A stretch of DNA of 24,602 nucleotides from a virus (taxonomy: Duplodnaviria; Caudoviricetes), in IMG/VR virus record IMGVR_UViG_3300043205_000037, positions 1-24,602 of that record, one strand, 5' to 3'. Shown piece after piece: positions 1,793 through 23,308 of this stretch (position 1 is its first letter; every line of letters starts with the position of its first letter). The notes under the pieces are model-generated. The model saw only the letters and a program-made list of their open reading frames with translations, made no database searches and was not told the DNA's origin. The position numbers and the translations under genes are program-made.

Positions 1793-2766
1793 TGATCCAT
1801 AACTCCCGATCGAAGGACTTTGTCCACAAACTTTCGCGCAGCGTCATACTCGACGGCGGCCGATTCAGCTGAATGGACGCCAGTAGCTCCCGCTTGCGAT
1901 GTGTTGAGCCTATATAGTTCTTGCAACACCGTTGCTTGTGTTTCTTGCGGCGTTGCGAACGCGCCCGGTCCCAATGCAAAGCCGTTATTCTTAAAGTTGG
2001 TCATGCCCGATATATACGACGGTATATTCGGCTCGTACTGAATTGTTCGGCCGCCGATCGTAACGGTACTTTCTTGCTCGGCCAAATACGCCGCTCGAAG
2101 TTGCGCAAACTCTTGTGAGCTCAGCACGCTTTGCGCTTCATTGACGGTTATACCTTCGATGGCTGCCGCCAGTCGAGCGCTGTCCGCGGCTCGGGAGGCA
2201 TTGACCGATTGTTGGACCGCGGCGGCCTCTTCCTCGGTGATCCTGCCAGTCGCAACAAGTCTTTCCAGGGTTGCCGCCAGGCCGACCGCCGGAGGGATAT
2301 CGTTGACAAGTTGAACCTGCCCCGAAGGCGCCTTCTGCCAATTCGGATTGCTGCCGCTCGCCGTGGCGTCCGTCAACGTATCGGACACCCGTTGAGCGTA
2401 GTGGCGCGTCCCCGGCGTATCGCCTGCGGCATGGGACGTGTCTTTCGGCGACCCGCTCCCGTCCTCCGTCGTCCATTGCCCGCCCTTCGAATTTCCGGCC
2501 GGCACCCGCGGCTGATCGGGATTGTACTTATTCAGTGCCGCCCGCAGCTCCGCTTTCGCAAGTACCGCGGCCGCTTCGAAGGCGTTACGGATGTCAGCGG
2601 CAAGCAGCTCGAAATCGCGGCGGATCGCGGCGATTTCGGCGTGGCGCCGCCGCAGCAGCTCGCCCTCGTCCGGGCCCGCCAACGTGCGGATCGCTTTGGC
2701 GATTTCGAGTTGCACGTGCAACGCCCGGGGCACGGCGCTTTCGATGCGCGGCAGCGGAGGCTTCAT
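1789..2766 (-). CDS. Polymorphic toxin: conserved MKPPLP carrier domain plus unassigned tip
   Basis: N-terminus matches the four other carrier copies up to KYNPDQPRVPAGNSKGGQWT. Lower-GC unique tip (GRTIQYEP..SGMT..NGF.LG..AF...TVLQELYRL). Alternative GTG start at 2796. Confidence 0.8.
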   Translation of the reverse strand: MKPPLPRIESAVPRALHVQLEIAKAIRTLAGPDEGELLRRRHAEIAAIRRDFELLAADIRNAFEAAAVLAKAELRAALNKYNPDQPRVPAGNSKGGQWTTEDGSGSPKDTSHAAGDTPGTRHYAQRVSDTLTDATASGSNPNWQKAPSGQVQLVNDIPPAVGLAATLERLVATGRITEEEAAAVQQSVNASRAADSARLAAAIEGITVNEAQSVLSSQEFAQLRAAYLAEQESTVTIGGRTIQYEPNIPSYISGMTNFKNNGFALGPGAFATPQETQATVLQELYRLNTSQAGATGVHSAESAAVEYDAARKFVDKVLRSGVMDQ

Positions 2767-2932
2767 TTGCTTGATCTCGGTGTGGAAGGCTTTCACGGCG
2801 CATGCGTGTTGGCTTGTCCGGTGCGGTGTGCGCTCCGGTCAGAGGGCAGTTCTGGATTCGGTTGAAAGCTCGAAGAAAAGAGCGGTGGGCGCGTCAGCTA
2901 CGCCTTCGGCTTGCTGGGCCGCGACGTGCCGT

Positions 2933-3217
2933 TCAGCGCCACCAGACAAATACCACGACGATAACACTCAGCGGCAGGACCATGGCGGATAGCAGCCGCC
3001 GCCAAGCCCGCTCGCTTATCGCGGATATGCAGGCTATGACGCCGGCGCCGGCCGATATCAGCCAACACAAAAGTATTTCGAGCGGCGCAAAGTCCAAACC
3101 TGGTCCTGTGCGGTCGTACGTGATGAAAAGCCAGGACCAAAAGACAGCCAGTACAGTCGGCCAATAGAGGACCCGATCCTTGATCGGGATGATTTGATCG
3201 TCGCTCGCGGCTTGCAT
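2933..3217 (-). CDS. Truncated membrane immunity-family paralog (DRVLYWP family)
   Basis: 94 aa hydrophobic protein with DRVLYWP and WRRLLS motifs shared with the genes at 14046, 17502 and 18228. It lacks their C-terminal YDESD/GHFYF part. Confidence 0.65.
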   Translation of the reverse strand: MQAASDDQIIPIKDRVLYWPTVLAVFWSWLFITYDRTGPGLDFAPLEILLCWLISAGAGVIACISAISERAWRRLLSAMVLPLSVIVVVFVWWR

Positions 3218-3224
3218 ATCGGAC

Positions 3225-3476
3225 TTATTGCCTACTTTGCCGAATTCGTCCGGACTCATAGAGATCATAGCCCTTTAGATTATCTTCGACATCCCGTTTG
3301 GACAAGTGTGAGTAGACTTCGTCCCTCGGATCGCCTGCGCTAAAAGTAGACAACGCGCTGGCATAGGCATCCGCGATTGCGAGATAATCATCCCTGCTAA
3401 CGCCCGCCGCCGCCATAAAGACGCCGGTCGCGATACTCGTATAGTGACGATAATCGCGAACGTAGGTGCGCTCAAT
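3225..3476 (-). pseudogene. Orphan Ntox44-like toxin tip fragment
   Basis: Frame reads IERTYVRDYRHYTSIATGVFMAAAG...DEVYSHLSKRDVEDNLKGYDLYESGRI, homologous to the tips at 14774 and 19851. No carrier domain. The frame is bounded upstream by the barstar stop codon. Confidence 0.75.
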
Positions 3477-3494
3477 CTCTCCGCGATCGCTACC

Positions 3495-3950
3495 TCATCG
3501 TTCTCGAGAGCGCCCCGGTTTCAATTGTCGCCGAAGATTATCGGCTATCGAGCGGAGTTTGGGGTCGGGTCCTTCGTATTGCACTGCCTCAACCGCATCG
3601 CGAATCTTGGCCACTTGATCATCAGACATGCTGCCATCGTTCGCAGGTGCATTCACAATCGAGACTTCAACGTCATCGCCGTTGTGCCGTTTTCGATAAA
3701 TGCGTCCTTCCACGAGCATACCGCTTACCAATTCGACATGGTCATGAACCTCTTTCGGCGTCGCTGAAAGGCCAGAGATTTGGACCGAATACGGCGGTTC
3801 CACAGCGTTGATTCCGCCCCAAATCATGGAATCGACCAAAGCGTCAGGGCTCTGGCCGTGCCGAGCCGGCGCACCAATCGAGGCGAGGAGCGCATGATAA
3901 AAATCGATCACCGTTTTCCATTTTGTGGCATCAAGCTCGATGGTTCGCAT
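3495..3950 (-). CDS. Barstar-family RNase inhibitor (immunity) with C-terminal extension
   Basis: MRTIELDATKWKTVIDFYHALLASIGAPARHGQSPDALVDSM fits the barstar N-terminal pattern. Starts 5 bp after a barnase-like toxin. Confidence 0.85.
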   Translation of the reverse strand: MRTIELDATKWKTVIDFYHALLASIGAPARHGQSPDALVDSMIWGGINAVEPPYSVQISGLSATPKEVHDHVELVSGMLVEGRIYRKRHNGDDVEVSIVNAPANDGSMSDDQVAKIRDAVEAVQYEGPDPKLRSIADNLRRQLKPGRSRER

Positions 3951-3955: not shown

Positions 3956-4777
3956 CTACTCGCCGCGCGGGTTCAGGTTGAGACGATAGAAGCTGCGGTA
4001 ATGATTGTTGGTGTAATACATCGCTCCAATACCAGCATCAATCACGATTCTGCCAACGCCTCTGCCGGCGCCAAGTCCCGGCACATCGAAAGCAATATAC
4101 CCGCTCGCGCCAGGAGGTAGAACAGCGCCTGTCTCATAGTGCGGACGGTTCTCGTAGGCATGCGGATACAACGTGCTGAAGTCCTGATTTAATATAAGAG
4201 TCAGTGCGTCTGCAACATTTTGCTGTTCGTCCGGCAATATCGGACCGTTCAATCCTTTTGGGTCTAACGGATCTTTTCCTGGCGGACGCGCAATCGTAAA
4301 CCCGCGAGGCGTGACCTCGTTCTGTGCAAGCCGCGGACCGTTGTCAAAAGCGTTAGCCTCGCCGGTACCGGTCTCATCCGTCAGCGTGCCGGTATCTATT
4401 GCGGCGTATCGTTTGGGCGACTCCGACCCAACGCCCGCAGCATTGAAACTATCTGCCGACGATCCGTTGCCACCGTCGCTCGTCCACTGCCCGCCATCGG
4501 GATTGCCGGCGGGCACGCGCGGTTGGTCGACGCTGTATTTTTTCAGCGCCGCCCGCAACTCCGCTTTCGCCAGCATTGCGGCCGCCTCGAAGGCTTTGTG
4601 CAGGTCGCGGGAAAGCGCCTCTAAATCGCGGCGGATCGCGGCGATCTCTGCGCGGCGCTGCCGCAGCAGTTCGTCCTCGTCCGGCCCGGCGAGCGTGCGG
4701 ATCGCTTTGGCGATCTCGAGGCGCACGTGCAACGTCTGCGGCACGGCGCTCAAGGTGCGTGGCAGCGGAGGCTTCAT
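3956..4777 (-). CDS. Polymorphic toxin: MKPPLP carrier plus barnase/RNase Sa-family ribonuclease tip
   Basis: ATG at 4777 matches the paralog starts. Tip YENR...LP...Y..FDV...RG.GRIV...YYTNNHYRSF. Adjacent barstar. Confidence 0.88.
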   Translation of the reverse strand: MKPPLPRTLSAVPQTLHVRLEIAKAIRTLAGPDEDELLRQRRAEIAAIRRDLEALSRDLHKAFEAAAMLAKAELRAALKKYSVDQPRVPAGNPDGGQWTSDGGNGSSADSFNAAGVGSESPKRYAAIDTGTLTDETGTGEANAFDNGPRLAQNEVTPRGFTIARPPGKDPLDPKGLNGPILPDEQQNVADALTLILNQDFSTLYPHAYENRPHYETGAVLPPGASGYIAFDVPGLGAGRGVGRIVIDAGIGAMYYTNNHYRSFYRLNLNPRGE

Positions 4778-4809: not shown

Positions 4810-5129
4810 CGGCACCGAAAAGGCAAAGCAGATGATGCGGGCGAGCCATTCGTCGAAATCGTCCTTGTGCTGCGGCTCCTTGGTCTGGACGACCTTTGCC
4901 GCGGTCTCGCCGGGCACGAATTTTGCCCGCCGGCGCTTGGCCAGGTCGCCGGCGAAGCCCCCACCCTTCCCTCCCCCGCAAGCGGGGGAGGGTTAGGGAG
5001 GGGGAATCCTGGAACTGCTTGATCTGGTCCGGTGTCCAGCCCTGCGGCACGCCGATCAGCGCGTCGGGGATCGAGCCTTCGGTGAAATAATCGAGCTGCC
5101 AGAGCTGGCGGCGCAGCGCGATGTTGACG
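4810..5129 (-). pseudogene. Internal portal-gene fragment interrupted by a REP palindrome
   Basis: Near-identical to portal ~12511-12796 (NIALRRQLWQ...CFAFSVP). The YWDTEF codons are replaced by a REP, causing a frameshift. Confidence 0.85.
4958..5004. repeat. REP-like palindrome
   Basis: CCCCCACCCTT-CCCTCCCCCGC-AA-GCGGGGGAGGG-TTAGGGAGGGGG. Same family as the elements at 6727, 12941 and 13708. Confidence 0.8.
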
Positions 5130-6505: not shown

Positions 6506-6516
6506 AGGAGCTCCAG

Positions 6517-6633: not shown

Positions 6634-6884
6634 CCCCTTGTGCTGCGGCTCCTTGGTCTGCACCACCTCGGCGGCCCTCTCGCCGGCACGAACTTGGTGT
6701 GGCGGCGCCCGGCGAGGTCGCCGACGCCCACACCCTTCCCTCCCCGCAAGCGGGAGAGGGTCAGGGAGGGGGTTAGTCCTCCGGACTGGCGAATCTGGCC
6801 CGGGGTCCAGCTCTGCGGCACGCCGAGCAAGGCGTCGGGGATCAAACCTTCGGTGCAGCAATCGTGCCGCCAAAGCTGGCGGCT
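6634..6884 (-). pseudogene. Degenerate portal-gene fragment with REP insertion
   Basis: Diverged copy of RQLW...TEG.IPDAL.GVPQ.WTP.QI...KFVP...VVQTKEPQHK. A REP sits at the same site as in the 4810-5129 fragment. Confidence 0.8.
6727..6772. repeat. REP-like palindrome
   Basis: CCCACACCCTTCCCTCCCCGCAAGCGGGAGAGGGTCAGGGAGGGGG. Confidence 0.75.
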
Positions 6885-7335
6885 ACGAACCATCCAGGCG
6901 ACGCGCTAATTCCTCCGCCTGCGGCAAATCGCGCTCAATGTCATGCACAACTTGTAATGACTCGTCCGCGGTCAGGAGTTTTCCCTCTTGCTCATCAAAA
7001 ACGACGCCGCCTGTCGCCCGCGCGTACGCCGTCGCCGCCATCCAAACAGCTATCAGCTCGTCAAAACCCGCTATCCAGGGGAAGGTAACAACATACTTCC
7101 AACTGTGACCGAAATTAATGTTCTTGTAGGTACTCATCAGATCCGCAGGATCCTCAATCCAACACTGAAAACTCGTTGGTCTGTCATGGAGGTGGGCGGT
7201 CAGAGTCCCACCGTCTTCATCAAACAGGACATCGTGCGCCAATCGCAAAGGCAAGCCTTCAGCGTCTAACGACCGCTGCCAGCTAGAAATTGAATCAAGT
7301 CGCGAGTCGGAGAGAACGTTGATTTCGACTGACAT
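6883..7335 (-). CDS. Putative immunity protein (family shared with 21123 and 21680)
   Basis: Follows a PD-(D/E)xK tip. Motifs VLSD.RL.SI..WQ...DAEG and W.AA.AYA.AT.GVVFD..EG shared with two paralogs that follow the homologous tip at 22157. Confidence 0.8.
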   Translation of the reverse strand: MSVEINVLSDSRLDSISSWQRSLDAEGLPLRLAHDVLFDEDGGTLTAHLHDRPTSFQCWIEDPADLMSTYKNINFGHSWKYVVTFPWIAGFDELIAVWMAATAYARATGGVVFDEQEGKLLTADESLQVVHDIERDLPQAEELARRLDGS

Positions 7336-7382: not shown

Positions 7383-8822
7383 CTAGTCCGGGTCGCCCTG
7401 CTGTGACTTTATGACTGGCCCGCGCTCGATGTGCAGATCAATGACCGGGACACGGGAGACCGCTTTTGTCGCGGCACGAAGTTGGTTCGCTCTACCTGGC
7501 CTCAGGCTAGCGTCTAGGGTCTTAACATCGTAGATCGCGATTACATCACCACTATCATTGCGCAAAACAGCATCTGGCTTGACAGCCTTTCTACGGCCAC
7601 CGTAGTCGGAAGGCAAACTGAATGTGTGCTCAACATCGGAAGGACTAATGCCGCGTATCCGCTCAGCGATTACCGCGGCAGCGAACCGCTTGTGAATCAA
7701 AATTCCATAGAAACTTGGAGATAAGTGCGTCGGAGCAGTCTCGTCGACAACCCTTGCAAGAATTTCTGACAATCTTTTGGTTGTTTCATCGATTTGCTGA
7801 ATTCCTGTCCATGCATTTGGCCCATATACAATGTCCCTCGGCGGGCCGGCATATTGCTCACCCTTGGGAACATTTGACGTGTCTGGTCGTCCCTCGGTTT
7901 CCAAAGCGGCATAGCGGGTCTCGGACCTCGAACTTTCGGCGGCAACAGGTGGGAAATTGTATGGAGTCTGACTACCCTCCCCGTCCTTCGGCCGAAACTT
8001 GCCGCCACGGCCTCCTGGGGTCCCGGTCGGCCAGCCGGGATGCTCAGGATCGTCCGAGCTCGCTTTCAGAAGCGCGAGTTTTGCGGATTGCGTCTCTGCA
8101 CCCGCGCTATGCCCATTCGCGCCCGTGCGTCCGGTGTTGGCTCCCTGCCCGCCCGCATTCGCCTCGATCGGCACAAAGCCGGTGGCGGTGAGCACCATCG
8201 GGCGGTCGGCGGCGGCGTTGTCGAAGGGGTCGAGGCCGAGGGCGTCGCGCATCTCGTTGAGCGTGAGCGCACCGACTTTCAGCCGGCCTTCGAGCACCGT
8301 CTCGGGATCGCCTTCGTCCTCGTCGAGCCAATGCAGCTCGAGATCCGGCGAGGCGAATTCCTCCGCCACGATCTCGTCGATCAAATCCTTGACCCACTCC
8401 TTGGTCGGCTCGAGCCCCTCTTCCTCGGCCTGCGCCGACTGGTTGTCGGCGGTGGCGCGGTTCATCGCCTTGGTGGCCCATTGCGGCGGCACCGAAAAGG
8501 CAAAGCAGATGATGCGGGCGAGCCACTCGTCGAAATCGTCCTTGTGCTGCGGCTCCTTGGTCTGCACGACTTTGGCCGCGGTCTCGCCGGGCACGAATTT
8601 TGCCCGCCGGCGCTTGGCCAGGTCGCCGGCGAATTCGGTGTCCCAATAATCCTGGAACTGCTTGATCTGGTCCGGCGTCCAGCCCTGCGGCACGCCGATC
8701 AGCGCGTCGGGGATCGAGCCTTCGGTGAAATAATCGAGCTGCCAGAGCTGGCGGCGCAGCGCGATGTTGACGGTCATCAACACCTGCTGCACCGGCGAGA
8801 AGCCGTAGACCCGGTGGGCGCG
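7383..8822 (-). pseudogene. 5'-truncated portal-toxin cassette with PD-(D/E)xK nuclease tip
   Basis: 8148-8822 is near-identical to the portal 3' region. It continues in frame through LLKASSDDPEHPGWP..GGRGGKFRPKD to the tip YGILIH...KPDAVLR...IYDVKT. No portal N-terminus. Open from GTG 8792. Confidence 0.85.
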
Positions 8823-8859: not shown

Positions 8860-9573
8860 TCAGTCACGGCACTCGCCGAATTCGGTTACGCGCCCGTCAT
8901 ATTTTTGGATTGAAGCGCACAAGCGGCTTGCCTCCGTAACGTCGCCTTCCTCTTTGCAGCTTCCTTTGATGCGCCAGTATTTGCCTTTGTCCTCTGCCAG
9001 CATCGGCGCTTGAACTTTAATATCATGGTGATGAGCATCAAAAAGCGCTTCGATGATGCTTGTGGCTAGCCTAGCATCAAAAACAACACCTCCGCGCGCC
9101 AATCCGGTTAAAAACATAATCCCCGACTCGGAAGCCGGGTCGGATCCTTCGTTTCTGAGCCGTGGTCCTGAAGCTGGAGCCGAATTCAAACTTGATTTCT
9201 GTTCATTATGGCCGTCGCGTATTGCTTTGACGACCAAAGGATGCGGTGGGCATCGAACATACTCGCCAAAATCGATCACTCGCGCATCACGCTTCTCAAT
9301 GGAGAGGAAGAATTCCGCAGGACCATTGATCGCTCCGTCGCGGTTTCGATTGCCTTCGACACGCCAATAATCTCCCCTATCTATCAACGACAGCGGCGAT
9401 TGCTCCCGAAGGTCGCCATAATGCGCCTCGCAAAATAACTCCGCGAGCTTGATTGCTAGGTTTTTATCGGACAAGAGGTCATCTGAGAACGTTTCCATCA
9501 TGATCACAAGCCTTGCTGTGAGATGCGATGAAATCAAGCAATTGCTTCTGTCAATGCGTCGGTTTCGATCCAC
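8860..9573 (-). CDS. Immunity protein with two tandem NTF2-fold immunity (YbbC/YhhH-like) domains
   Basis: Internal duplication: LAIKLAELFCEAHYG..QSPL...GDYWRVEG...SIEKRDARVIDFGE versus LATSIIEALFDAHH..QAPM...GKYWRIKG...SIQKYDGRVTEFGE. True start may be ATG 9501. Confidence 0.75.
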   Translation of the reverse strand: MDRNRRIDRSNCLISSHLTARLVIMMETFSDDLLSDKNLAIKLAELFCEAHYGDLREQSPLSLIDRGDYWRVEGNRNRDGAINGPAEFFLSIEKRDARVIDFGEYVRCPPHPLVVKAIRDGHNEQKSSLNSAPASGPRLRNEGSDPASESGIMFLTGLARGGVVFDARLATSIIEALFDAHHHDIKVQAPMLAEDKGKYWRIKGSCKEEGDVTEASRLCASIQKYDGRVTEFGECRD

Positions 9574-11029
9574 GCGGCAGCAGCTTAAGCGGAGGCAACT
9601 CGGTCACACTGTACTCCTTTCCCGGCCCAGGCGCTCGGATAAAGAAGACCCTCATAGGTGGAAAGGGGGCACCGGGCTCCCAGCCCAGTTCCGTAACGCG
9701 AAGATCATTGCTATAGACGTGCCACCCCAGCTGCATCATTTGAAGATAGATAGTCTGATTTGGTGTTAGAGTTATAGTTTCGTCGCCGGTCTTTATTTCA
9801 AGAACTGAGGGCCCCATGCCAGGCATAATCGCTATGATATCGGGATATCCAAGAATATCTTCCGGCAAACCGATCATATGCACGGCCGGCTCCTTGATGG
9901 CCGGTATACCGATGCTCTTAAGATAAGCCATCCAGTGATTGACATTCGCTTCGTGAAATCCCGCACTGAAGTCTACGACAGGAATCGGTGCCGCGGCGCT
10001 TGAAAAATCAGTCGCAGCATCCTTCGGGCGAAACTTTCCGCCCTTCCCTCCGGCGGTTCTTGCGGGCCATCCGGGGTGTTCAGGATCGTCCGGGCTCGCT
10101 TTTCCAAGCGCGTGATTCGCGAACCGCTTTCCCACATTTGCACTTTGCCCGTTCGCGTTGGCATTTCCGTCACTCGCCCCCTCCCCGCCCGCATTGGCCT
10201 CGATCGGCACAAAGCCCGTCGCCGTGAGCACCATCGGGCGATCGGCTGCGGCGTTGTCGAAGGGGTCGAGGCCGAGGGCGTCGCGCATTTCGTTGAGGGT
10301 AAGCGCGCCGACTTTCAACCGGCCTTCCAGCACCGTCTCGGGATCGCCCTCGTCCTCGTCGAGCCAATGCAGCTCGAGATCGGGCGAGGCAAATTCCTCC
10401 GCCACGATCTCGTCGATCAGATCCTTGACCCACTCCTTGGTCGGCTCGAGCCCCTCCTCTTCGGCCTGCGCCGATTGATTCTCCGCCGTGGCGCGGTTCA
10501 TCGCCTTGGTGGCCCATTGCGGCGGCACCGAAAAGGCAAAGCAGATGATGCGGGCGAGCCACTCGTCGAAATCGTCCTTGTGCTGTGGCTCTTTGGTCTG
10601 GACGACCTTGGCCGCCGTCTCGCCGGGCACGAATTTTGCGCGCCGCCGCTTGGCCAGGTCGCCTGCGAACTCGGTGTCCCAATAATCCTGGAACTGCTTG
10701 ATCTGGTCCGGCGTCCAGCCCTGCGGCACGCCGATCAGCGCGTCGGGGATCGAGCCTTCGGTGAAATAGTCGAGCTGCCAGAGCTGGCGGCGCAGCGCGA
10801 TATTGACCGTCATCAGCACCTGCTGCACCGGCGAAAAACCGTAGACCCGGTGAGCGCGCACGTTGCGCGGCCGGTAGACGATATCGCGCGCCGAGTAATT
10901 GACCGCGGGCAGGCCTTTGAGCACCTGCTGATAGGCCGGCGGATAGATCGTCGTGCCGTCGGCCGCGGCGAACGGCTGCGGCGTGCGGCCCCAATCGTCG
11001 ATGACGCGCTTGATGGTCGCGCCGTCGAG
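9551..11029 (-). pseudogene. 5'-truncated portal-toxin cassette with a second PD-(D/E)xK nuclease tip
   Basis: 10175-11031 is near-identical to portal 12163-13051. The frame opens after a TAG (CAG in the full portal). Junction LGKASPDDPEHPGWP..GGKGGKFRPKD. Tip GYPDII...VLEIKTG...LTPNQ. Confidence 0.85.
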
Positions 11030-11069: not shown

Positions 11070-11564
11070 TTAATCCAACACGGTACCTCGCCGAGCACCA
11101 TCATATGCGAGATCCTGAAAATCCTTCGGAAAATATTGCCGCTGAAGGTCGTCCACAATTTCATTCGCGCGAATGGAAATGCCCATATTGGGCCAATCTT
11201 TCAGGTGGTTCCACAGTCCCACCATGAGATCAATTCGCCAACCGGGAAACTCCTTCACTAGCTCCTGAAGCGCACTGACAACCGGGCGCTCCAACAGTTT
11301 GAGGTTATGAACGAAGACAACAACTTGCGGATATTCGCTATAATCGCCGTGGACCGAATAATCACCATGGCGCTGTCCTGGTAAAAAATCAGGCCTGCCA
11401 AAGCGCTCGAGCAGTGCATCGACGCGAGGGTAGAGCCGCTCAAAAACATCATATTGCTCGGCTTGGCGACGATCGTACTCGTCCCGACTCATCGTATTGA
11501 TGTCATCTCTAGTTATCATTTTCTGCTGCTCCCGATCATCGCTAGACGGCTTAGTCTGGATCAC
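11070..11564 (-). CDS. Putative immunity protein for the portal-fused toxin
   Basis: 164 aa, acidic, lower GC. Overlaps the portal-toxin stop, with GGAGG upstream of the GTG start. Confidence 0.75.
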   Translation of the reverse strand: MIQTKPSSDDREQQKMITRDDINTMSRDEYDRRQAEQYDVFERLYPRVDALLERFGRPDFLPGQRHGDYSVHGDYSEYPQVVVFVHNLKLLERPVVSALQELVKEFPGWRIDLMVGLWNHLKDWPNMGISIRANEIVDDLQRQYFPKDFQDLAYDGARRGTVLD

Positions 11565-14045: not shown

Positions 14046-14777
14046 TCAATGATTGCACTGCCGAGAATTGTCGTAACGATCAAGCGGGCAAATGGTGACA
14101 AAATAAAAATGCCGGAACATGCGGGAATCGCGAGAAACCGGTGTGCCTGATACTTCCGACGACATGTGATAACCCTCGAATGGTCCAGCACAAATCCCGG
14201 AACGGAGCCCGGTCGCATCGCTCTCATCATAGGCGACCCCAATACCGCAAGGCGCAGTGTCAGCCCAGCCCCACACCTTGAATCGCGGCTTGTCGGCGGG
14301 CAGCCTGGATATCTCGGCCGTGTAACGAGGATACATGACGGAAAGATAGACGTAGTCCCCGCCGCGCCTGAAGGCATCGAGATTGGCTGCCGCAACAATC
14401 GCGGTCAGCAGCAAAATGAGCGTGGATAACAGCCGACGCCAAGTGTGTTTGAGTCCGTGCTCGACACAGTTCATCGCGGCAATAATGGCGACGGTTACGC
14501 CCGCCCCGCCCCAGAACAAAAACAACAGGGGAATGAAGAATGCGTATAGAAAATATGGACCGGCAATCCCAAAGGCAGTGGCCAGCGGACAGGCCTTCGC
14601 AATGTCGGCGCCGTCGCAAGCAAAAGTGGCAAGGCCGAAAGGGACAAAGACAATATACAGGAGGGATTTGAGGAATGGACCCGGATAAGCAATCAAGCAG
14701 GTCAGCGCACAGCCAGCAGCGGTAGCGACCGGCCAATAGAGAATTCGGTCGTCAGTCGCGCCTTGCACGGCAGTCAT
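14046..14777 (-). CDS. Membrane immunity protein (DRILYWP family)
   Basis: Multi-pass hydrophobic N-terminus with C-terminal PRFK.W...CG.G.AYDESD...HFYF. ATGA overlap with the Ntox44-like toxin. Confidence 0.8.
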   Translation of the reverse strand: MTAVQGATDDRILYWPVATAAGCALTCLIAYPGPFLKSLLYIVFVPFGLATFACDGADIAKACPLATAFGIAGPYFLYAFFIPLLFLFWGGAGVTVAIIAAMNCVEHGLKHTWRRLLSTLILLLTAIVAAANLDAFRRGGDYVYLSVMYPRYTAEISRLPADKPRFKVWGWADTAPCGIGVAYDESDATGLRSGICAGPFEGYHMSSEVSGTPVSRDSRMFRHFYFVTICPLDRYDNSRQCNH

Positions 14778-15847
14778 CGCCCCGGCCGAATACGTCCCGA
14801 TTGGTACAATCTATAGCCCAGTTTCGTATCTTCGACATCCTGCTTCGCCGAATGAGTGTAGACGTCGTCCAGCCGGTCATTACGGCCGAATCGGGAAAAA
14901 TTTAGGGCATAATCGTCTATTGTCGAGAGGACATCGTTCTGATCCAAGCCTGCTGCCGCGCCGTAAACGCCGATCATGATGTTCAGATAGTGGCGGTAAT
15001 CGATAACACGACTGAAGTCGAAACGTTCGGCATCCAGAGACCCTCCAGGGGAAACAGGAAGCAGCAACGAATAAAGGATCCCCCGAGCCACAGACGGTGT
15101 AACGTCCCAAGGCCCGACCTGATCTTGCGGGCTCATCAACGCGCTCAACGCTGTCCCCGAGAATGGGTTTGCCAAGCCCGCCTGAACATATCTTTCCGGT
15201 GGCATGCTAGCAGGCCGAAAAATAGGTTGACCCTGATTGTCGTGGATCGGGACGCCATCACTGTCCACAAATTCCACTGGGGCCCTTGGATGATCCTCAG
15301 GAAGTGTATACGACCAAATATTCTGACGCCGCGGATCATGTACAGTCAGAAGAGTGTAGAGCACACCAGGAAGGTTACCCTGAATTGACGTGTCGTACGC
15401 GGCCGTGTTGGCCGCGTTGCGGCTTGTCTCGTCCGTACGCGTATTAGTCTCGGCCTGAGCGTATTGCACGCGCGCACCAGAGACCTCGCTCGTGTTGTCG
15501 TCTGAAAGATGCGATGCCTCGCCGCTCCCGGCGACAGGCTCACTCCCGCTCGTCCACTGCCCACCGTCGGGGTTTCCGGCCGGCACGCGCGGCTGGTCGG
15601 GGCTGTATTTTTTCAGCTCCGATTGCAGCTCCGCCATCGCCAGTGCCGGCAATTCTTCGCCGAGCTTGCGAACGCCGCGCGCGAGCACATCCAAATCGCG
15701 GCGGATCGCGGCGATCTCCGCGCGCCGCTGCCGCAGCAATTCGTCCTCGTCCGGCCCGGCGAGCGTGCGGATCGCCTTGGCGATCTCGAGCTGGGTGTGC
15801 AAGTTCCGCGGCACGGCGGTCAAAATGCGAGGTCCGTTGGGGTTCAT
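14774..15847 (-). CDS. Polymorphic toxin: carrier domain plus Ntox44-like tip
   Basis: Carrier N-terminus (AVPRNLHTQLEIAKA...KYSPDQPRVPAGNPDGGQWT), ATGA-coupled to terL. Tip LDAER...YRHYLNIMIGVYGAAAGL...DVEDTKLGY resembles the Ntox44 NxxxG...D pattern. Confidence 0.82.
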   Translation of the reverse strand: MNPNGPRILTAVPRNLHTQLEIAKAIRTLAGPDEDELLRQRRAEIAAIRRDLDVLARGVRKLGEELPALAMAELQSELKKYSPDQPRVPAGNPDGGQWTSGSEPVAGSGEASHLSDDNTSEVSGARVQYAQAETNTRTDETSRNAANTAAYDTSIQGNLPGVLYTLLTVHDPRRQNIWSYTLPEDHPRAPVEFVDSDGVPIHDNQGQPIFRPASMPPERYVQAGLANPFSGTALSALMSPQDQVGPWDVTPSVARGILYSLLLPVSPGGSLDAERFDFSRVIDYRHYLNIMIGVYGAAAGLDQNDVLSTIDDYALNFSRFGRNDRLDDVYTHSAKQDVEDTKLGYRLYQSGRIRPGR

Positions 15848-17379
15848 GCGATCGACCCTTTGTCGTCATCGACCAACTGCTGGTAGCCGGCCTTGAGGAG
15901 GGGCTCGACGTCGCCCGGCGCCACCGCGATCACACGGTCAGCGCCGACCATATAATATGTCGTGGACAGACCATGAACGCCGGAGATGTTCTCCGGCACG
16001 CGCAAGCGGATCGTCGCCGGCGCTTCGGGGGCCGCCGCGGCCGCGGCCGGCCGGGCCTGGTCCTCCACCTTGAGACGGTAGAATTCGATGATCGCGGTGT
16101 TGTCGGCTTTCAGCATCAGCTCGGTGACGGCAAAGATCAGCGCGTCGGCGTGATCCGGACTGCCCTCGCCGCGATAGCCCGCGGTGGTGAAGGCGCAGAG
16201 CTGGTCCTCCAGCACGGCGAAACGGCCGACGTGATGTACGATACCCTGCTCGTACAGCGCCGACACCGGCTCGGCGCGCAGCACCTTGCCGCGCGAGGCC
16301 GAGATCATGTGCACCGGCAGATTGGGATCGGCGGCGCGGATGACGAAGCGCACCATCTCGCCGCCGAAATTCTCCTCCGCCACGATGCGGTCGGCGTCGA
16401 AATCGTGATAGGCCTGCACCGCGACGCGGCCCCACGCGGCGGGCGCATCGCGCAGCGAGCGGTCGGCGAGCACGTAAGCGTGGCCGTCGGCGCCGCGCGC
16501 GGCAACGACGATGCCGATCTCGTCGGCGCGTTCGTCGTCGCGGCTCGAGGCGCCCGACGGATCGACCGCGACGACGACGCGCCGGCGGTCGGCCTTCGGC
16601 AGGTCGGCAACGCGCGCGCGGGCGATCATCTCGTAGCTGAACAGCGCACCGTCGAGATTGTCGATATAGACGCCTTCGAAGAAGCGCTTGCGCTGCCGCT
16701 CGGGCAGCCGTTCGAGGCTCTTGAGGTAATCCGCCGATAGATTGTCGGCGTTGTCGCGTGGATTGAGAAATATCCGCTCGTAGTTGTCAGGATCGTCAAG
16801 CGGCAGTTGCGAGATCGGATCGCGCTTCTCGCCGAACAGAACGTTGGTCCAGTGGCCCTTGCTGGTCGGGTTCAAGTCGTAATAGGCGGCCTGGCGGAGA
16901 TCGCCGGCAACCTGCGCCAGCCGGGTCAGCGCGACCAGCACCGAGGAGTAGGGAATCTGCGAGCATTCGTTGAGAAAGATCGTGACATATTCCTTGCCCA
17001 GAATCTTCTCGACCCGCTCCTGGTCGTCGAGGCCGGCGAACCAGATTTCCGATTCGTTATTGAGCGAAAAATACCCCTCGGTGCGGTGGTGTTTGTGCGG
17101 CACCATGGGGTCCCAGAAGCGAAACACCTTCGGCAGCGTGTCAAGCGCGATCGAGGGCCGCACCGCATTGGCGCGGAACCGCAGGATAGCGTGACGCGAG
17201 GCGTCGGCGCGCAGCGCACGGGTGACGATTTCATGGACCAGGAGCGTGGTCTTGCCGGACCGCGCGCCGCCCACGAGCAGCGTGTGCCGCTGCGACCGTC
17301 CCAGGAGCTTTTGCGCGTCCTGCTGCCTGGCAGTGCGCTTGAATTGGGACTTTTGAGACGGCTCGTTCTCGCTTCCCAT
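15844..17379 (-). CDS. terL: Phage terminase large subunit
   Basis: Walker A GGARSGKT, Walker B-like IFLNE, coupling motif DLNP, nuclease motifs VVVAVDPS, IVAEENFGG and SPDHADAL. Confidence 0.93.
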   Translation of the reverse strand: MGSENEPSQKSQFKRTARQQDAQKLLGRSQRHTLLVGGARSGKTTLLVHEIVTRALRADASRHAILRFRANAVRPSIALDTLPKVFRFWDPMVPHKHHRTEGYFSLNNESEIWFAGLDDQERVEKILGKEYVTIFLNECSQIPYSSVLVALTRLAQVAGDLRQAAYYDLNPTSKGHWTNVLFGEKRDPISQLPLDDPDNYERIFLNPRDNADNLSADYLKSLERLPERQRKRFFEGVYIDNLDGALFSYEMIARARVADLPKADRRRVVVAVDPSGASSRDDERADEIGIVVAARGADGHAYVLADRSLRDAPAAWGRVAVQAYHDFDADRIVAEENFGGEMVRFVIRAADPNLPVHMISASRGKVLRAEPVSALYEQGIVHHVGRFAVLEDQLCAFTTAGYRGEGSPDHADALIFAVTELMLKADNTAIIEFYRLKVEDQARPAAAAAAPEAPATIRLRVPENISGVHGLSTTYYMVGADRVIAVAPGDVEPLLKAGYQQLVDDDKGSIA

Positions 17380-18788: not shown

Positions 18789-18800
18789 GTCGTTCTCCGG

Positions 18801-19168: not shown

Positions 19169-19277
19169 AGGGGCGCTTACGGTTAAGCCAAGATCAAGAG
19201 AGCTAACTTGCGGTCTGTTGGTTCTAATCGGCGAAGTCCGTCTCTGCTGGGCTCGGCGCTTTGCGCTCGGCCTGCTA

Positions 19278-19838
19278 CTAACAAAAGGTCGCGAAATAGA
19301 AATGTCCGAATGCGCGGGAGTTGCCGTGCACGTCCACCGTGCCAACAAGTCCATCGCTCGTCGAGCGGTGCCTGGACGCAATCGCGTCGCTTTCATCGTA
19401 GGCAATCCCGCTGCCGCAAGGCCCGGCGAAATGCCATTGCCACGCCTTAAAGCGCGGTTCCGGCAGGTCCGATATCTCGGCCATGTACCAAGGATACAAG
19501 GCAAAGAGGTGAACATAATCGCCTGACGCGGCAGCCGACTGCCAAGCCCATCCGAGATTCACTCCGGTTACGACCATGACCAGCAGCAGGATCAGCTTCG
19601 ACGGGAAACGGCGCCATTCGCGTTGGTAGGCCGAGACGGCAAGCGCCAGGGCATCGAGATAAGTCAAGCCGGCCCAGGCGACAAAGACGACGAGCAATAT
19701 CGCGCCACAGATGAAGAGGACAATGATTCGATCGCTTACAATATCGATAAGAATACGGACACCAAAAACGGACAATGGTCCAAGCACCGCAAAGATCCAC
19801 GTCCAAATTCGCACGCGACTATCAAGTGTGCTCTGCAT
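19278..19838 (-). CDS. Membrane immunity protein (same family as DRILYWP proteins)
   Basis: Hydrophobic N-terminus, then GDYVHL..YP.Y..EIS.LPEPRFK.W...CG.GIAYDESD...FGHFYF. Directly after the Ntox44-like toxin. Confidence 0.8.
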   Translation of the reverse strand: MQSTLDSRVRIWTWIFAVLGPLSVFGVRILIDIVSDRIIVLFICGAILLVVFVAWAGLTYLDALALAVSAYQREWRRFPSKLILLLVMVVTGVNLGWAWQSAAASGDYVHLFALYPWYMAEISDLPEPRFKAWQWHFAGPCGSGIAYDESDAIASRHRSTSDGLVGTVDVHGNSRAFGHFYFATFC

Positions 19839-19850: not shown

Positions 19851-20957
19851 CTATCGTCTCAACCGAATGCGCCCGGACTCGTACAATCTATAGCCCAATT
19901 TCGTGTCTTCGACATCCTGCTTGGCTGAGTGCGTGTAGACTTCGTCCATCAACTCTTCGGTCGCGAATGTCGATTTGCGGGAGGCGTAGAAATCTATGGC
20001 GGAGAGGACGTCTTCGCGGTTTAAACCCGCAGCCGCAGAATAAACACCGATCATTATGTTTAGATAGTGGCGATAGTCGAGAACGTAATTCCCATCGAAC
20101 CGTTCAGCGTCCAACAATCCTCCGGGCGCGACTGGAAGTAATGCCGAATAAAGTGCGACTACCGCACCTAAGACCTTGGCGTCCGAAACCCCATCACCCG
20201 TCCCAGGCTGCAGCAATCCAGCGGATTGCGCGCCCAAAAATCGATTTGCAAGTCCAGCTCGGAGATATCTTTCGGGCGGAAGGTCATCCGGTCTGGAGAT
20301 GGGATTATCCAGGATGTCGAGAACGGGTTGGCCATCACTGTCTACGAATCGCACCGGATGCCTTGGATGATCCGCCACTATCTCATTCGACCAAATCAAG
20401 TCACGAGGTATTGTCGATTGGACAGTGTGGAGCACGCTCTGAAGATTGGTCAGAATTTGCGTGTCTTGCGTGGCGCTGTCTGTCGTACCGCCGCTCCTGC
20501 CCACCGCCGCCGGACTCGTGCCTGGAATTTCCAGCGACGCATACCGTATGCGCGTTTCAGCATTTTCATTAACGGCATCTGCTTGACCATCCTTGGGCCG
20601 GAATCGACCTCCCTGGCGGTCTGGCGCTCCAGCCGGCCAACCTGGATGCTCTGGGTCATCGACTGCTGCTTTCGTGGTTCCACGGCGGTCCGGCACCCGC
20701 GGATGGTCGGGGTTATATTTTCTCGGTGTCCCGCACAGCTCCGCTTTCACCAGCGCCGAAGCCTCCTTGAAGGCCCTCGGAATCTCGCGGGCAAGCGCCT
20801 CCAGGTCTTGGCGGATGGCGGCGATCTCAGCACGGCGCTGGCGCAGCGGATCATCCCCATTGGGCGCCGTCAGCGTGCGGACGGCCTTGGCGATTTCGAG
20901 CTGCGCGTGCAGCGTTCGCGGCACGGCGCTCTCGATACGCGGCAGCGGTGGTTTCAT
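19851..20957 (-). CDS. Polymorphic toxin: MKPPLP carrier plus Ntox44-like tip
   Basis: ATG at 20957 matches the paralogs. Contains both KYNPDHPRVP and DDPEHPGWP..GGRFRPKD motifs. Tip strongly similar to that of 14774..15847. Confidence 0.83.
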   Translation of the reverse strand: MKPPLPRIESAVPRTLHAQLEIAKAVRTLTAPNGDDPLRQRRAEIAAIRQDLEALAREIPRAFKEASALVKAELCGTPRKYNPDHPRVPDRRGTTKAAVDDPEHPGWPAGAPDRQGGRFRPKDGQADAVNENAETRIRYASLEIPGTSPAAVGRSGGTTDSATQDTQILTNLQSVLHTVQSTIPRDLIWSNEIVADHPRHPVRFVDSDGQPVLDILDNPISRPDDLPPERYLRAGLANRFLGAQSAGLLQPGTGDGVSDAKVLGAVVALYSALLPVAPGGLLDAERFDGNYVLDYRHYLNIMIGVYSAAAGLNREDVLSAIDFYASRKSTFATEELMDEVYTHSAKQDVEDTKLGYRLYESGRIRLRR

Positions 20958-21119: not shown

Positions 21120-21122
21120 CAA

Positions 21123-21602
21123 TTAAGTTTGTTTGCGTTGCGTCGCCAATCGCCGCATCAAATGCTGCTTACGCTCCCGCAATTCCGGCAAGAACTGCTC
21201 AAGATCGCGCGCGACATCGAGCGCCGCCGCCGGGCTGAAAAGTTTGCCCTCCTCGTCGTCGTATATGACACCGCCGGTAGCACGCGCATAAGCTATCGCA
21301 GCCATCCACGCCGCCGTTGAATTGTTGACATTCAGCCCGCCCCAGATAAATGCAAACGCGTACTTCCATTTGCGATCGAATTTCTCAGTTCCGTAACACT
21401 CCATCGTCTCCTGTGCGTCTCTGGGGTGAAACTCGAAATCGGTCAGTTCGTCGTGCAATTGGCCGAGCCATTTGCCGTTGATCTCGCTTGGGGGCACGTC
21501 ATCGGATAGCCACAGCCGGAAACCCTCGGCGTCGATCGCCTGCTGCCATTGGGCAATCGAGCCAAGAATCCGATCGGAGAAGACACATATCTGCATCGAC
21601 AT
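21123..21602 (-). CDS. Immunity paralog (family of 21680 and 6883), orphan
   Basis: MSMQICVFSDRILGSIAQWQQAIDAEG...WMAAIAYARATGGVIYD. Start chosen by alignment to paralogs. Confidence 0.8.
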   Translation of the reverse strand: MSMQICVFSDRILGSIAQWQQAIDAEGFRLWLSDDVPPSEINGKWLGQLHDELTDFEFHPRDAQETMECYGTEKFDRKWKYAFAFIWGGLNVNNSTAAWMAAIAYARATGGVIYDDEEGKLFSPAAALDVARDLEQFLPELRERKQHLMRRLATQRKQT

Positions 21603-21679
21603 GACGAGCGCCGTCGACCTCAGGTCAATGAATGCGCAGGCTTGATAACTTGCATGTTCGGGGCACATTCTCTGACAGA

Positions 21680-22123
21680 TCAGTGCCGCGACTGCAGCTC
21701 ACGCAACATCCTTGGCATGTCACGCACGATTTTTCTTGCTGCTTGTCTAGCCTCCTCCACAGGAAGGATCGACCCATCCTCACCATCAAACACGACGCCG
21801 TTCGTGGCGCTGGCATAAGCGGCTGCGGCCGTCCACGCAGCCTCAAATTCATGGAAATCGCCCCTCCAGCGGAACCCAAGCACAAATTTCCATTCGTGGC
21901 CGAAATCGATATCGGAATTTTCACTTATAAATTCGTCAGCTGAATCGTGATAGCATTCAAAACCAGTCAGCTTTCCATTTAATCGCGCGGGTAAAAATCC
22001 TGAATGCCATCGAAAGTCTGTGTCATCCAACTTGACGGCGAAGCCCTCGGCATCGATCGCCGCCTGCCACTCAGCAATTGATCCTAATTGCCGGTCGGAC
22101 AAGACAAACATCTCCATCGCCAT
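21680..22123 (-). CDS. Putative immunity protein for the 22157 toxin
   Basis: GGAGGG RBS. Immediately downstream of the nuclease tip. Paralogous to 6883..7335. Confidence 0.82.
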   Translation of the reverse strand: MAMEMFVLSDRQLGSIAEWQAAIDAEGFAVKLDDTDFRWHSGFLPARLNGKLTGFECYHDSADEFISENSDIDFGHEWKFVLGFRWRGDFHEFEAAWTAAAAYASATNGVVFDGEDGSILPVEEARQAARKIVRDMPRMLRELQSRH

Positions 22124-22156
22124 GTGAAAGCCCTCCCGCCTCCATTGCCGCCACGA

Positions 22157-23308
22157 TTACCGGCGTTTCAAAATAGCGCCTCGTACGCGATTCAACTCGA
22201 TCACCGGTATGGTACGGCCGGAATCGGTCATATAGCGAATCTTAATGACTCGGAGCTCGCTCATACCGCGTCCCGTCTTGATATCATAAATCGCAGCGAT
22301 GTTGCCGGTGTCGCGTCGAAGTATCGCGTCAGGTCTGATACTGTATTTGGCTCCATAAAACGCCTTATCGGTTAACGAGAAAGTTCTTTCCACGTCATTG
22401 GGCTCTATGCCCGGCAGACCCTTCGCACGCAACATCTCAGCAAAATCCGTGTGAACGCGGATACCATATTGGCCCGGGTCCAGGTCTGCTCGAGGTCCAA
22501 CTCCGTCCATGACATCGCCAAGGAGGTCCATCAGCTTTGCTGTTGTGCTGTCAATTAAGGGATCGCCCGTCTTTGTGTTTGGTGGGAAAATGAAGCGGCG
22601 GCCGGTACTTAGATCGCGGGGAAATCCAAGGCCGCGAAGCCGTGCGAGGAATTCCTCCGCCTCTTGCGCTCGGGCCTCCAGATTTGTGATCTTACCTTCG
22701 ATATCTTCGTAAACACCAGGACTCGGACTCCAGTTTTGATCAATTTTTCGCGCTTGCGCGATCAAATCGTTGAGCCGAGCCTGGGCGACATCCAGCCTTA
22801 TCAGCTGCCCGGGCGACGCTTCCATACCGCCTTCACGTTCATTTTCCTCATTGCTCTCATTACCGGCCGCGTATCGCGTCCCCGATGCCGGTGCATCCGT
22901 CAGCACATTGTTTGGTGAAGTTTCGAGTGAGGCATACCTCACAGGCACTCCGGAGCGTTCTGTAGATGTTCGACTGGAGGGGGTTGACGGTTGGTTTCCG
23001 CCGTCTCCCTTCGTCCACTGTCCACCGTCGGGATTTCCAGCCGAAACGCGTGGTTGGTCGGGGCTATATTTCTGCAGCGTTGCCCGCAGATCCGCTTTCA
23101 GCAGTGCCGCAGCTTCTTCGAAAGCTTTGCGGATATCGCCGGCGAGCACCTCAAGATCGCGACGCAGCGCAATGATCTCGGCGCGGCGCCAGCGAAGCAG
23201 CTCGTCCTCATCCGGCGCCATCAGCGTGCGCATGGCTTTGGCGATCTCAAGCTGTGCGTGCAGCGTTCGCGGTACGGCGCTTTCGCTGTGCGGCAGCGGA
23301 GGTTTCAT
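22157..23308 (-). CDS. Polymorphic toxin: MKPPLP carrier plus PD-(D/E)xK nuclease tip
   Basis: Carrier N-terminus. Tip YGIRVH..FA...DVERTFSL...RPDAILR...IYDIKTG, homologous to the tip of the 7383 portal cassette. Confidence 0.85.
   Translation of the reverse strand: MKPPLPHSESAVPRTLHAQLEIAKAMRTLMAPDEDELLRWRRAEIIALRRDLEVLAGDIRKAFEEAAALLKADLRATLQKYSPDQPRVSAGNPDGGQWTKGDGGNQPSTPSSRTSTERSGVPVRYASLETSPNNVLTDAPASGTRYAAGNESNEENEREGGMEASPGQLIRLDVAQARLNDLIAQARKIDQNWSPSPGVYEDIEGKITNLEARAQEAEEFLARLRGLGFPRDLSTGRRFIFPPNTKTGDPLIDSTTAKLMDLLGDVMDGVGPRADLDPGQYGIRVHTDFAEMLRAKGLPGIEPNDVERTFSLTDKAFYGAKYSIRPDAILRRDTGNIAAIYDIKTGRGMSELRVIKIRYMTDSGRTIPVIELNRVRGAILKRR

What the first reader, a model, noticed from the sequence alone, without database searches (positions are those of the whole stretch)
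2400..23075. Shared junction motifs before every tip on both carriers
Seen: all eight fusions have K(Y/A) followed by either DQPRVPAGNPDGGQWT-like or DDPEHPGWP..GG.GG.FRPKD. Six then have a second motif (RYAALET, RYASLET, RYASLEI, RYAAIDT, HYAQRVS, QYAQAET), usually followed by TD or PD. The 19851 gene carries both first-type motifs in tandem, and the full portal uses the type typical of the stand-alone genes. Inference: a common ejection, translocation or processing signal that also serves as a recombination joint.
Basis: partly seen in the sequence, partly recalled or inferred. Interest (0 to 1): 0.75.

Follow-up and report, generated by a model that had tools for sequence, protein, structure and literature searches.

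The report
Cut site plus widespread cargo tag
A soil prophage puts the same two-part label in front of eight swappable toxin-like domains: a lysine where its head protease likely cuts, followed by a short peptide that unrelated phages also place in front of head-module cargo and that likely acts as a docking tag for loading or injection.

Summary
The motifs are real. All eight fusions have Lys|Tyr/Ala plus a PRVP..GGQW or HPGWP..GGxF peptide, and six have [RQH]YA. The junction has separable parts. (1) Hydrophobic-x-Lys is likely the prohead-protease site. It is enriched in the protease/scaffold and capsid leaders of this clade, including cultured relatives that lack the peptide, and HK97's mature capsid chain starts after F-N-K. 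(2) The peptide after it belongs to a widespread family with no Pfam or PDB match (765 clusters at 50% identity). Giant polyproteins carry up to 8 copies, one per module. The residue in front of it follows each phage's apparent protease site (Lys, Asn, Leu). In one phage with no recognisable protease gene, eight genes start with it at or near Met. It would therefore be a retained N-terminal tag, likely for docking or delivery; its partner is unknown. (3) [RQH]YA is clade-specific. Tip exchanges do end at both motifs, but silent sites are not extra conserved, so the recombination role is likely a by-product. No cut, packaging or delivery has been measured. Verdict: new variant of a known kind (protease-processed capsid cargo, polymorphic toxins).

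The parts
321..1337 (-). XkdF/S78_2-type prohead protease with scaffold-like C-terminal half; likely the cutting enzyme
   Evidence: PF14550 E 7.9e-5, 23.1 bits, just under the cut-off of 24; PHROG head maturation protease E 2.7e-7; His and Ser motifs at aa 66 and 110
1789..2766 (-). Fusion A: helical MKPP leader, junction, tip of unknown family
2383..2535 (-). Junction A: LNK 2527-2535, tag 2473-2526, motif 2 2383-2403
3495..3950 (-). Barstar-family immunity gene behind fusion B
   Evidence: PF01337 E 1.4e-5
3956..4777 (-). Fusion B: MKPP leader, junction, barnase-family RNase tip
   Evidence: PF00545 E 2.5e-7
4391..4546 (-). Junction B: LKK 4538-4546, tag 4484-4537, motif 2 4391-4411
6883..7335 (-). 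Likely immunity gene of fusion C, homologous to 21123-21668 and 21680-22123
   Evidence: BLASTP E 4e-36 and 4e-38
7383..8792 (-). Fusion C: 3' portal duplicate, junction, tip homologous to the tip of H
   Evidence: tips 39% identical, E 1e-29
7836..8072 (-). Junction C: LLK 8064-8072, HPGWP tag 7983-8063, motif 2 7896-7916 and 7836-7856
8860..9573 (-). Imm-NTF2-2 immunity gene behind fusion D
   Evidence: PF15631 E 9.9e-9
9551..10924 (-). Fusion D: 3' portal duplicate, junction without motif 2, tip
10019..10108 (-). Junction D: LGK 10100-10108, HPGWP tag 10019-10099
11070..11564 (-). Likely immunity gene of fusion E (by position; no family)
11551..13653 (-). Fusion E: full portal protein, junction, tip (start inferred; the open frame runs to 13860)
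   Evidence: PF04860 E 5.8e-16; phrog_2662
11998..12066 (-). Junction E: IQK 12058-12066, divergent PRVP tag 11998-12057
14046..14777 (-). Likely immunity gene of fusion F; same family as 2933, 17502, 18228 and 19278
14774..15847 (-). Fusion F: leader, junction, tip with a weak Ntox44 match
   Evidence: PF15607 E 0.013, below cut-off
15446..15616 (-). Junction F: LKK 15608-15616, tag 15554-15607, motif 2 15446-15466
15844..17379 (-). Terminase large subunit
   Evidence: PF17289, PF04466, PF03237
19851..20957 (-). Fusion G: MKPP leader, chimeric junction, tip 58% identical to the tip of F
20526..20726 (-). Junction G: PRK 20718-20726, truncated PRVP tag 20691-20717, TTK 20670-20678, HPGWP tag 20589-20669, motif 2 20526-20546
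21680..22123 (-). Likely immunity gene of fusion H
22157..23308 (-). Fusion H: MKPP leader, junction, tip homologous to the tip of C
22856..23077 (-). Junction H: LQK 23069-23077, tag 23015-23068, motif 2 22919-22939 and 22856-22876

Best explanation
Each junction holds a hydrophobic-x-Lys site that the element's own prohead protease likely cuts inside the procapsid, followed by a widespread PR..GxW peptide that would then head the released toxin-like domain and likely docks it in the head for delivery with the DNA. Steps: (1) Inferred: the portal or the helical MKPP leader brings the fusion into the procapsid. (2) Inferred, about 0.8: the XkdF/S78-type protease cuts after the Lys, as at the capsid leader and scaffold. 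(3) Inferred, about 0.55: the exposed N-terminal tag, consensus [YFW]-[DNS]-P-x-[QH]-P-R-x(2-9)-G-[QRE]-[WF] with HPGWP as a variant, binds a conserved component of the particle and so holds the cargo in place for ejection; where no protease is encoded, the same tag sits at Met and could also load the protein. (4) Inferred: the tip acts in the infected cell, and lysogens are protected by the immunity gene behind each tip. (5) Shown as a pattern: exchanges of tips begin or end at the tag and at [RQH]YA, likely because these are the last stretches shared between cassettes.
For: Lys site: 111 of 113 tag contexts in kin loci have Lys within 6 residues, 101 of these with L/V/I/M/F two residues before it (related sequences, not independent). 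The pattern [LIVMF]-x-K-[ASTGY] is enriched in 5 protease/scaffold proteins (39 against 14.9 +/- 3.6, 0 of 1000 shuffles), in 5 capsid leaders (9 against 1.1, 0 of 500), in portal tails (15 against 6.6, 2 of 1000) and in the carrier ends (41 against 12.8, 0 of 200). It is not enriched in terminases, tail proteins or capsid bodies. Four cultured relatives have the sites but no tag. Mature HK97 capsid chains in the PDB begin at Ser104, after F-N-K. In the AlphaFold model the carrier helix ends exactly at the Lys and the rest is unstructured (5 sequences, pTM 0.28). Tag: 765 clusters match. 77 of 138 new hits have 2 or more copies, median spacing 255 aa, beside ART, NUDIX, GNAT, zeta, Acb1 and MuF domains (20 of 31 scanned had families). 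The residue before the tag agrees within proteins (0.88 against 0.59 +/- 0.03). It matches the local protease/scaffold motif in the Lys clade (6 against 2.2, 15 of 1000), an Asn locus (10 against 3.6, 0 of 1000) and two Leu loci (19 against 7.6, 0 of 1000), with no cross-enrichment in those three sets. L237 has eight tagged genes between portal and scaffold, all with the tag at or near Met. Exchange.
Against: No cut, packaging or delivery is measured. Tips are not depleted of the Lys pattern (46 against 39.8 +/- 6.0), so folding would have to protect them. The site in the 19851 gene reads PRK, without the hydrophobic residue. The patterns were written after I had seen the sequences, and 2 of the 5 protease-bearing sets did not fit cleanly: L187 is ambiguous (Ala-Ser 40 of 1000, Leu 10 of 1000), and L207 has tags after LERR with no significant enrichment. 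Agreement within a protein can also come from internal duplication. The window's protease is not detectably similar to HK97 gp4 by BLASTP (E 2.7) and falls just under the Pfam cut-off. L237 is an 11-kb fragment, and one of its tagged genes has a weak SprT-like metallopeptidase match (E 0.009), so a protease is not excluded there. HPGWP lacks the otherwise invariant Arg and joins the family only through profile comparison (probability 84%, score 21 against at most 16.8 in 40 column shuffles; 98% through 13 PRWP bridging variants). Genome context is known for only one of the giant polyproteins (P0136, on viral contig L189). The tag's partner is unknown.
Confidence: 0.6

Rival explanations
1. The tag acts only after injection, on a host machine: the cut would expose an aromatic N-terminus that works as an N-degron, or as a handle for a host unfoldase or translocase.
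For: 212 of 264 Lys-type copies in the distant hits have Y, F or W right after the Lys. That F, Y, W and L are bacterial N-degrons is recalled. A host partner would explain conservation across unrelated head modules.
Against: HPGWP-type copies start with Ala, as do 51 of 111 kin contexts; L237 copies start Met-Ala-Phe or Met-Gly-Trp; the conserved core lies 5-18 residues in.
Confidence: 0.13
2. The tag is only the primed-side recognition sequence that makes the neighbouring Lys a good protease site, with no role after the cut.
For: It sits 1-6 residues after the Lys in 111 of 113 kin contexts.
Against: It follows sites of different protease types, stands at Met starts, and capsid and scaffold sites have no tag.
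Confidence: 0.08
3. There is no cleavage: tips stay fused, and the motifs are structural anchors that tie the flexible tail to the portal or shell.
For: No cut is shown; Lys-Ala after a hydrophobic residue is common in helices; tips are not depleted of the pattern.
Against: Helical tail proteins are not enriched (13 against 13.3); the residue before the tag switches with the protease clade; HK97 precedent.
Confidence: 0.1
4. The motifs are kept mainly as DNA joints for tip exchange, and the peptides are incidental.
For: 14 of 21 pairs with a shared carrier and unrelated tips lose homology 56-61 nt after the Lys, where the tag ends at 54; one tip sits on both carrier classes with only 5 nt shared before the Lys; 7 pairs break 26-42 nt into motif 2.
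Against: Four-fold sites in the tag are 55-69% identical against 60-72% in the carriers, and conserved residues use several codons. The peptide persists in phages of unrelated head type. No recombinase was found among the 25 ORFs scanned.
Confidence: 0.08

Closest known systems
T4 capsid targeting sequence (CTS) and gp21 processing (PMC9026906; section 2.5 and passages read)
   Same: A short shared peptide on unrelated head cargo, a prohead protease with a short hydrophobic-x-P1 motif (L/I-X-E), and cargo ejected with the DNA.
   Different: The CTS lies before the cut and is removed; this tag lies after the predicted cut and would be kept. P1 is Lys here, and the tag recurs inside polyproteins and across unrelated head modules. 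The MKPP leader is the closer CTS analogue.
HK97 gp4 maturation of gp5 (S78-type protease)
   Same: The mature chain starts after hydrophobic-x-Lys, F-N-K103|S104, like the capsid leader and the junctions here.
   Different: The protease here matches the XkdF/S78_2 family, with no BLASTP similarity to gp4; no tag in the HK97 head region.
MuF polymorphic toxins of temperate phages (PMC5576092, PMC3482391; passages read)
   Same: Variable toxin tips and immunity genes in the terminase-portal module, proposed to be loaded into heads.
   Different: No MuF domain here; the carriers are the portal and an unnamed helical leader. The words 'motif' and 'cleav' do not occur in the main text of PMC5576092.
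Polyvalent proteins of phages (PMC5512222, PMC9503650; passages read)
   Same: Multi-enzyme head cargo fused to portal or MuF, with the same domains (ART, NUDIX, GNAT) as the tag-bearing polyproteins.
   Different: Processing is ascribed to built-in zincin metallopeptidases; I saw no repeated inter-domain peptide in the passages read. The supplementary alignments were not seen.
SPN3US gp245 processing of head and ejection proteins (PMC10052503, PMC7411985; passages read)
   Same: One prohead protease cuts capsid, portal and other head proteins at a shared motif.
   Different: Cuts after Glu and removes N-terminal propeptides; no retained shared tag is described in the passages read.

Membership tests
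Prohead-protease substrate site (S78/XkdF type) | Protease gene with His and Ser motifs in the head module | tested here: met
   PF14550 E 7.9e-5 (under cut-off), PHROG protease hits; motifs at aa 66 and 110
Prohead-protease substrate site (S78/XkdF type) | Same motif at the capsid leader and in the scaffold, not in other proteins | tested here: met
Prohead-protease substrate site (S78/XkdF type) | Site in an accessible, unstructured place | tested here: inconclusive
   Helix ends at the Lys, then pLDDT under 50; shallow alignment
Prohead-protease substrate site (S78/XkdF type) | Cleavage measured | not testable with these tools
   needs proteomics
T4-type capsid targeting sequence | N-terminal propeptide that the protease removes | tested here: not met
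   The tag lies after the predicted cut; only the MKPP leader lies before it
T4-type capsid targeting sequence | Sufficient to load a foreign protein | not testable with these tools
   In L237 the tag is the only shared feature I saw among eight genes: suggestive only
MuF polymorphic toxins | N-terminal MuF domain | tested here: not met
   No MuF hit in Pfam, NCBIfam or PHROGs scans of the eight fusions
Polymorphic toxin system | Conserved N-terminus with variable tips | tested here: met
   8 C-terminal families of 4 or more members and 11 singletons among the homologues
Polymorphic toxin system | Immunity gene behind the tip; extra cassettes | tested here: met
   Barnase with barstar, Imm-NTF2-2; homologous tip and immunity pairs; 3' portal duplicates. 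No immunity gene identified for fusion A
Polymorphic toxin system | Toxicity and neutralisation shown | not testable with these tools
   needs expression tests
Polyvalent proteins processed by a zincin MPTase | Built-in zincin metallopeptidase | tested here: not met
   No such Pfam hit in the window's fusions
Site-specific recombination joint (shufflon or integron type) | DNA-level conservation beyond coding need | tested here: not met
Site-specific recombination joint (shufflon or integron type) | Adjacent recombinase | tested here: inconclusive
   None among 25 ORFs, but the record is a fragment

The most novel reading that the evidence does not exclude
The PR..GxW peptide is a general address for capsid cargo in tailed phages, kept on the mature protein. 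Phages with unrelated portals, capsids and proteases expose it at the N-terminus of every cargo module, by their own protease or by a start codon, and it binds one universal component to load and eject the module. One 18-residue motif would then identify injected anti-host and anti-defence proteins from sequence, and could carry reporter proteins.
Probability: 0.4. Interest if true: 0.87.

Novelty: new variant of a known kind. Interest (0 to 1): 0.68.

Why it matters
How tailed phages choose the proteins they inject with their DNA is known mainly for T4, and the proposal that portal- and MuF-fused toxins are delivered from heads is largely untested. This junction gives both questions residue-level predictions: where the cut falls, which N-termini should appear in particles, and which peptide to delete or transplant. 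The tag also works as a search handle for unnamed cargo domains (11 of 31 large tag-bearing proteins scanned had no Pfam family).

Tried and rejected
Complex prediction of two portal cores with the tag: no answer, score 0.00; no evidence either way. Tag profile against the PDB: 0 hits at E 10. Tag members against Pfam: 0 families, 26 of 33 scanned. Foldseek of the carrier model against viral structures: nothing at E 0.001. ESM Atlas: only unnamed clusters. tblastn of single junctions against cultured phages: no match, too short to be informative. Head or cargo regions of five further cultured phages, picked through a polyprotein search, held no full tag, only shorter RDxxG[RK]F stretches in two of them, so I name no cultured model. 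A word-indexed search for shorter tag-bearing proteins found nothing. Sequencing runs: no RNA holder listed. The first breakpoint script (upper table) was faulty and was replaced; the leader split was wrong for one phage and was redone. Rejected: motif type fixed by carrier; MuF as the universal partner, since the window has none; motif 2 as part of the universal tag (6 of 255 against 6.8 expected); an assembly artefact at the 19851 junction. Ten literature searches found no description of the tag; the 30 listed of 60 papers were unrelated. Subscription papers and the supplementary alignments of PMC5512222 were not seen and could hold it.
Full report
Setting. The window is a whole IMG/VR virus record of 24,602 bases. 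On the minus strand it holds a terminase large subunit (15844-17379), a portal, two 3' portal duplicates and an XkdF/S78_2-type prohead protease (321-1337), interleaved with toxin-like tips and immunity genes. A second record, identical over window 1-2400, continues into a 524-aa gene whose relatives are annotated as major capsid or head protein in cultured phages. Three kin records are classed as proviruses, 68-78% complete. The stand-alone carrier occurs in Xanthobacteraceae and other alphaproteobacterial MAGs, and the two runs that hold most of the stretch are soil metagenomes. Head-tail adaptor and neck genes follow in relatives; my reading of the later genes as a non-contractile tail rests on recalled resemblance.

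Observation. Eight fusions carry Lys|Tyr/Ala and one of the two peptides, and six carry [RQH]YA. The back-translated pattern gives 3 matches against 0.00 by chance. A profile built without window rows finds the six PRVP-type sites above all 30 shuffles, but not the HPGWP sites. In the 19851 gene the first peptide is truncated after PRVP and the second brings its own Lys; this junction lies within single contigs in two runs. In relatives both types occur on both carriers and on at least one further carrier class. Within the window the same tip family sits on a portal cassette with the HPGWP type and on a stand-alone gene with the PRVP type (39% identity), each followed by a homologous small gene.

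Element 1, the lysine. Of 113 unique tag contexts in loci L001-L114 and the window, 111 have Lys 1-6 residues upstream, and 101 of these have L, V, I, M or F two residues before it (kin sequences). The capsid gene begins with three such sites just before its conserved body. I counted [LIVMF]-x-K-[ASTGY] in four cultured phages with related capsids plus this element. Protease/scaffold: 39 against 14.9 +/- 3.6. Portal beyond residue 450: 15 against 6.6. Portal core: 9 against 6.7. Terminase: 12 against 9.1. Tail proteins: 13 against 13.3. Capsid leaders: 9 against 1.1; capsid bodies: 3 against 6.8; carrier ends: 41 against 12.8; tips: 46 against 39.8, so not depleted. The cultured phages have the sites but no tag, so the two elements are separable. 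Mature HK97 capsid chains begin at residue 104, after F-N-K; that T5 and Twort-like phages also cut after Lys is recalled, not checked. In an AlphaFold model of carrier A the long helix ends at the junction Lys and all that follows is unstructured. I infer that the Lys is the prohead-protease site.

Element 2, the tag. A search of 1.84 billion cluster representatives with the junction of H found 765 proteins at E 0.001 or better and listed 150. Of the 138 new ones, 77 have two or more copies (255 copies, median spacing 255 aa), with up to 8 in proteins of up to 4,009 aa. Of 31 large ones scanned, 20 had Pfam families: ADP-ribosyltransferases (14 proteins), NUDIX, GNAT, zeta toxin, Acb1, topoisomerase IB and MuF. 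These are the domains that PMC5512222 and PMC9503650 (passages read) ascribe to head-packaged cargo. The residue before the tag is Lys-type in all copies of 49 proteins, in none of 21 and mixed in 7; agreement within proteins is 0.88 against 0.59 in shuffles, though duplication can contribute. A strict DNA pattern returned 143 IMG/VR stretches, about 210 estimated; of 116 loci with new contexts, 83 were Lys-type, 28 not and 5 mixed. I scanned 69 of 81 ORFs from 10 non-Lys loci: all 10 are head or packaging modules, with at least five portal families and Mu-like, HK97-like or scaffold-only organisation. The residue before the tag matched the motif enriched in the local protease/scaffold and capsid leader for Lys (6 against 2.2), Asn (L235, 10 against 3.6) and Leu (L228 and L233, 19 against 7.6), with no cross-enrichment in these three sets; L187 was ambiguous and L207 not significant. 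These patterns were set after inspection. Six of 33 non-Lys copies follow a Met directly. L237 has eight different genes between portal and scaffold, each with the tag at or within about 12 residues of Met, a capsid gene without a leader and no recognisable prohead protease in that interval; it is a fragment, and one gene has a weak metallopeptidase match. The HPGWP type aligns to the PRVP type with probability 84%, above 40 column shuffles, and with 98% through 13 PRWP variants. In four MAGs the strong hits cluster on a few contigs, and 5 of 301 sampled genomes of the phylum, the centre genome included, had a hit (28 candidates scored per genome). The simplest reading is a peptide that must head each mature cargo module. 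Because portal-fused and polyprotein modules would already be inside the head, its role there should come after the cut; because the L237 proteins show no other shared feature, it may also load.

Element 3, [RQH]YA. It occurs within 90 residues of the tag in 40 of 77 non-redundant kin tips against 2.1 in shuffles, mostly 20-30 residues downstream and often followed by T-x-T-D, and in 105 of 114 close homologues. It is at background level in the distant hits (6 of 255). It is a clade-specific linker module; a second cut or binding site is possible, but I have no evidence for either.

Recombination. Among 90 junctions, 21 pairs share the carrier up to the Lys but have unrelated tips; 14 lose homology at +56 to +61 nt, where the tag ends at +54. 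One tip occurs on a stand-alone carrier and on portals with 450 nt shared after the Lys and 5 nt before it. Among 65 junctions with motif 2, 7 pairs break 26-42 nt into it and 5 pairs start sharing 2-13 nt before it. These pairs reflect a handful of events. In the window, cassettes C and D are 89% alike up to the end of the tag, whereas the full portal diverges from them 70-100 nt before the Lys, and the 690-900-nt portal duplicates supply far more homology than the tag. Four-fold sites in the tag are 55-69% identical against 60-72% in the carriers (the invariant residues were fixed by my search pattern). The motifs are therefore real exchange boundaries, likely as a result of protein-level conservation.

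Known systems. It works like T4 head processing (PMC9026906, section 2.5 and passages), but the tag fails the CTS test of being removed. It works like MuF toxins (PMC5576092, PMC3482391, passages) without MuF. The tag has no Pfam or PDB match, and ten literature searches found no description; passages of PMC7824862, PMC10052503 and PMC7411985 held none either. Subscription papers and supplements were not seen.

Verdict. Observation confirmed with small corrections; interpretation partly supported. New variant of a known kind, interest 0.68. The bolder reading, a general retained address for capsid cargo, has about 0.4 probability and would deserve 0.87.

Noticed in passing
L237:1744-7821 (minus strand): Eight unrelated genes between a DUF4055 portal and a DUF6651 scaffold all begin with the tag; the cleanest natural test case for a tag-only address.
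   Followed up: partly
window 23234-23308, 20883-20957, 4703-4777, 2692-2766 (minus): The first 25 or so residues of the stand-alone carrier (MKPPLPR..LEIAK|A) are kept on carriers with unrelated middles in relatives, also behind the capsid gene, and end in a Lys site: a candidate removable CTS-like leader.
   Followed up: partly
window 17276-17454 and 19019-19192; L007:14119-14445 and 16684-17010; L013:12946-13236: 3' ends of core genes (terminase here, capsid gene in relatives) are duplicated in front of toxin or immunity cassettes, as the portal 3' end is: cassettes seem to be added by partial gene duplication.
   Followed up: no
window 4810-5129 and 6636-6883: Short degraded portal fragments, each interrupted by a palindromic repeat.
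   Followed up: no
window 142-313, 4958-5004, 6727-6778, 12934-12987, 13708-13744: REP-like GC-rich palindromes, two of them within the portal's reading frame; contig depth there is 10-30 times the surroundings, so they are likely host-wide repeats.
   Followed up: no
window 5177-6526: NTP_transf_8 nucleotidyltransferase fused to DUF1488, inserted among the cassettes.
   Followed up: no
window 2933-3420, 17502-19838: Five related membrane-type immunity-like genes and two orphan C-terminal fragments of the Ntox44-like tip (near 3230-3420 and 18801-19049).
   Followed up: partly
L001:19540-20637; L013:18215-19300: A third carrier class (RLPID..FPDPP) behind the neck gene, with LLK followed by a WDPxKHPR..PPNxGWF tag variant.
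   Followed up: partly
P0121-P0156; L189, L230, L249: Giant polyproteins with 3-8 tags; many modules have no Pfam family and are candidate injected effectors. P0122 begins with Acb1.
   Followed up: partly
L317:11386 and 14558 (phage DSL-LC01): Two genes behind the portal carry QRRDRxG[RK]F near their start, a possible short relative of the tag in a cultured phage.
   Followed up: no
linkers of kin fusions, e.g. L047, L049, L073: Further recurring linker modules, xSDATPDNxWxPGxQYA and PGIGHNQGPP, occur in shuffled order between tag and tip.
   Followed up: no
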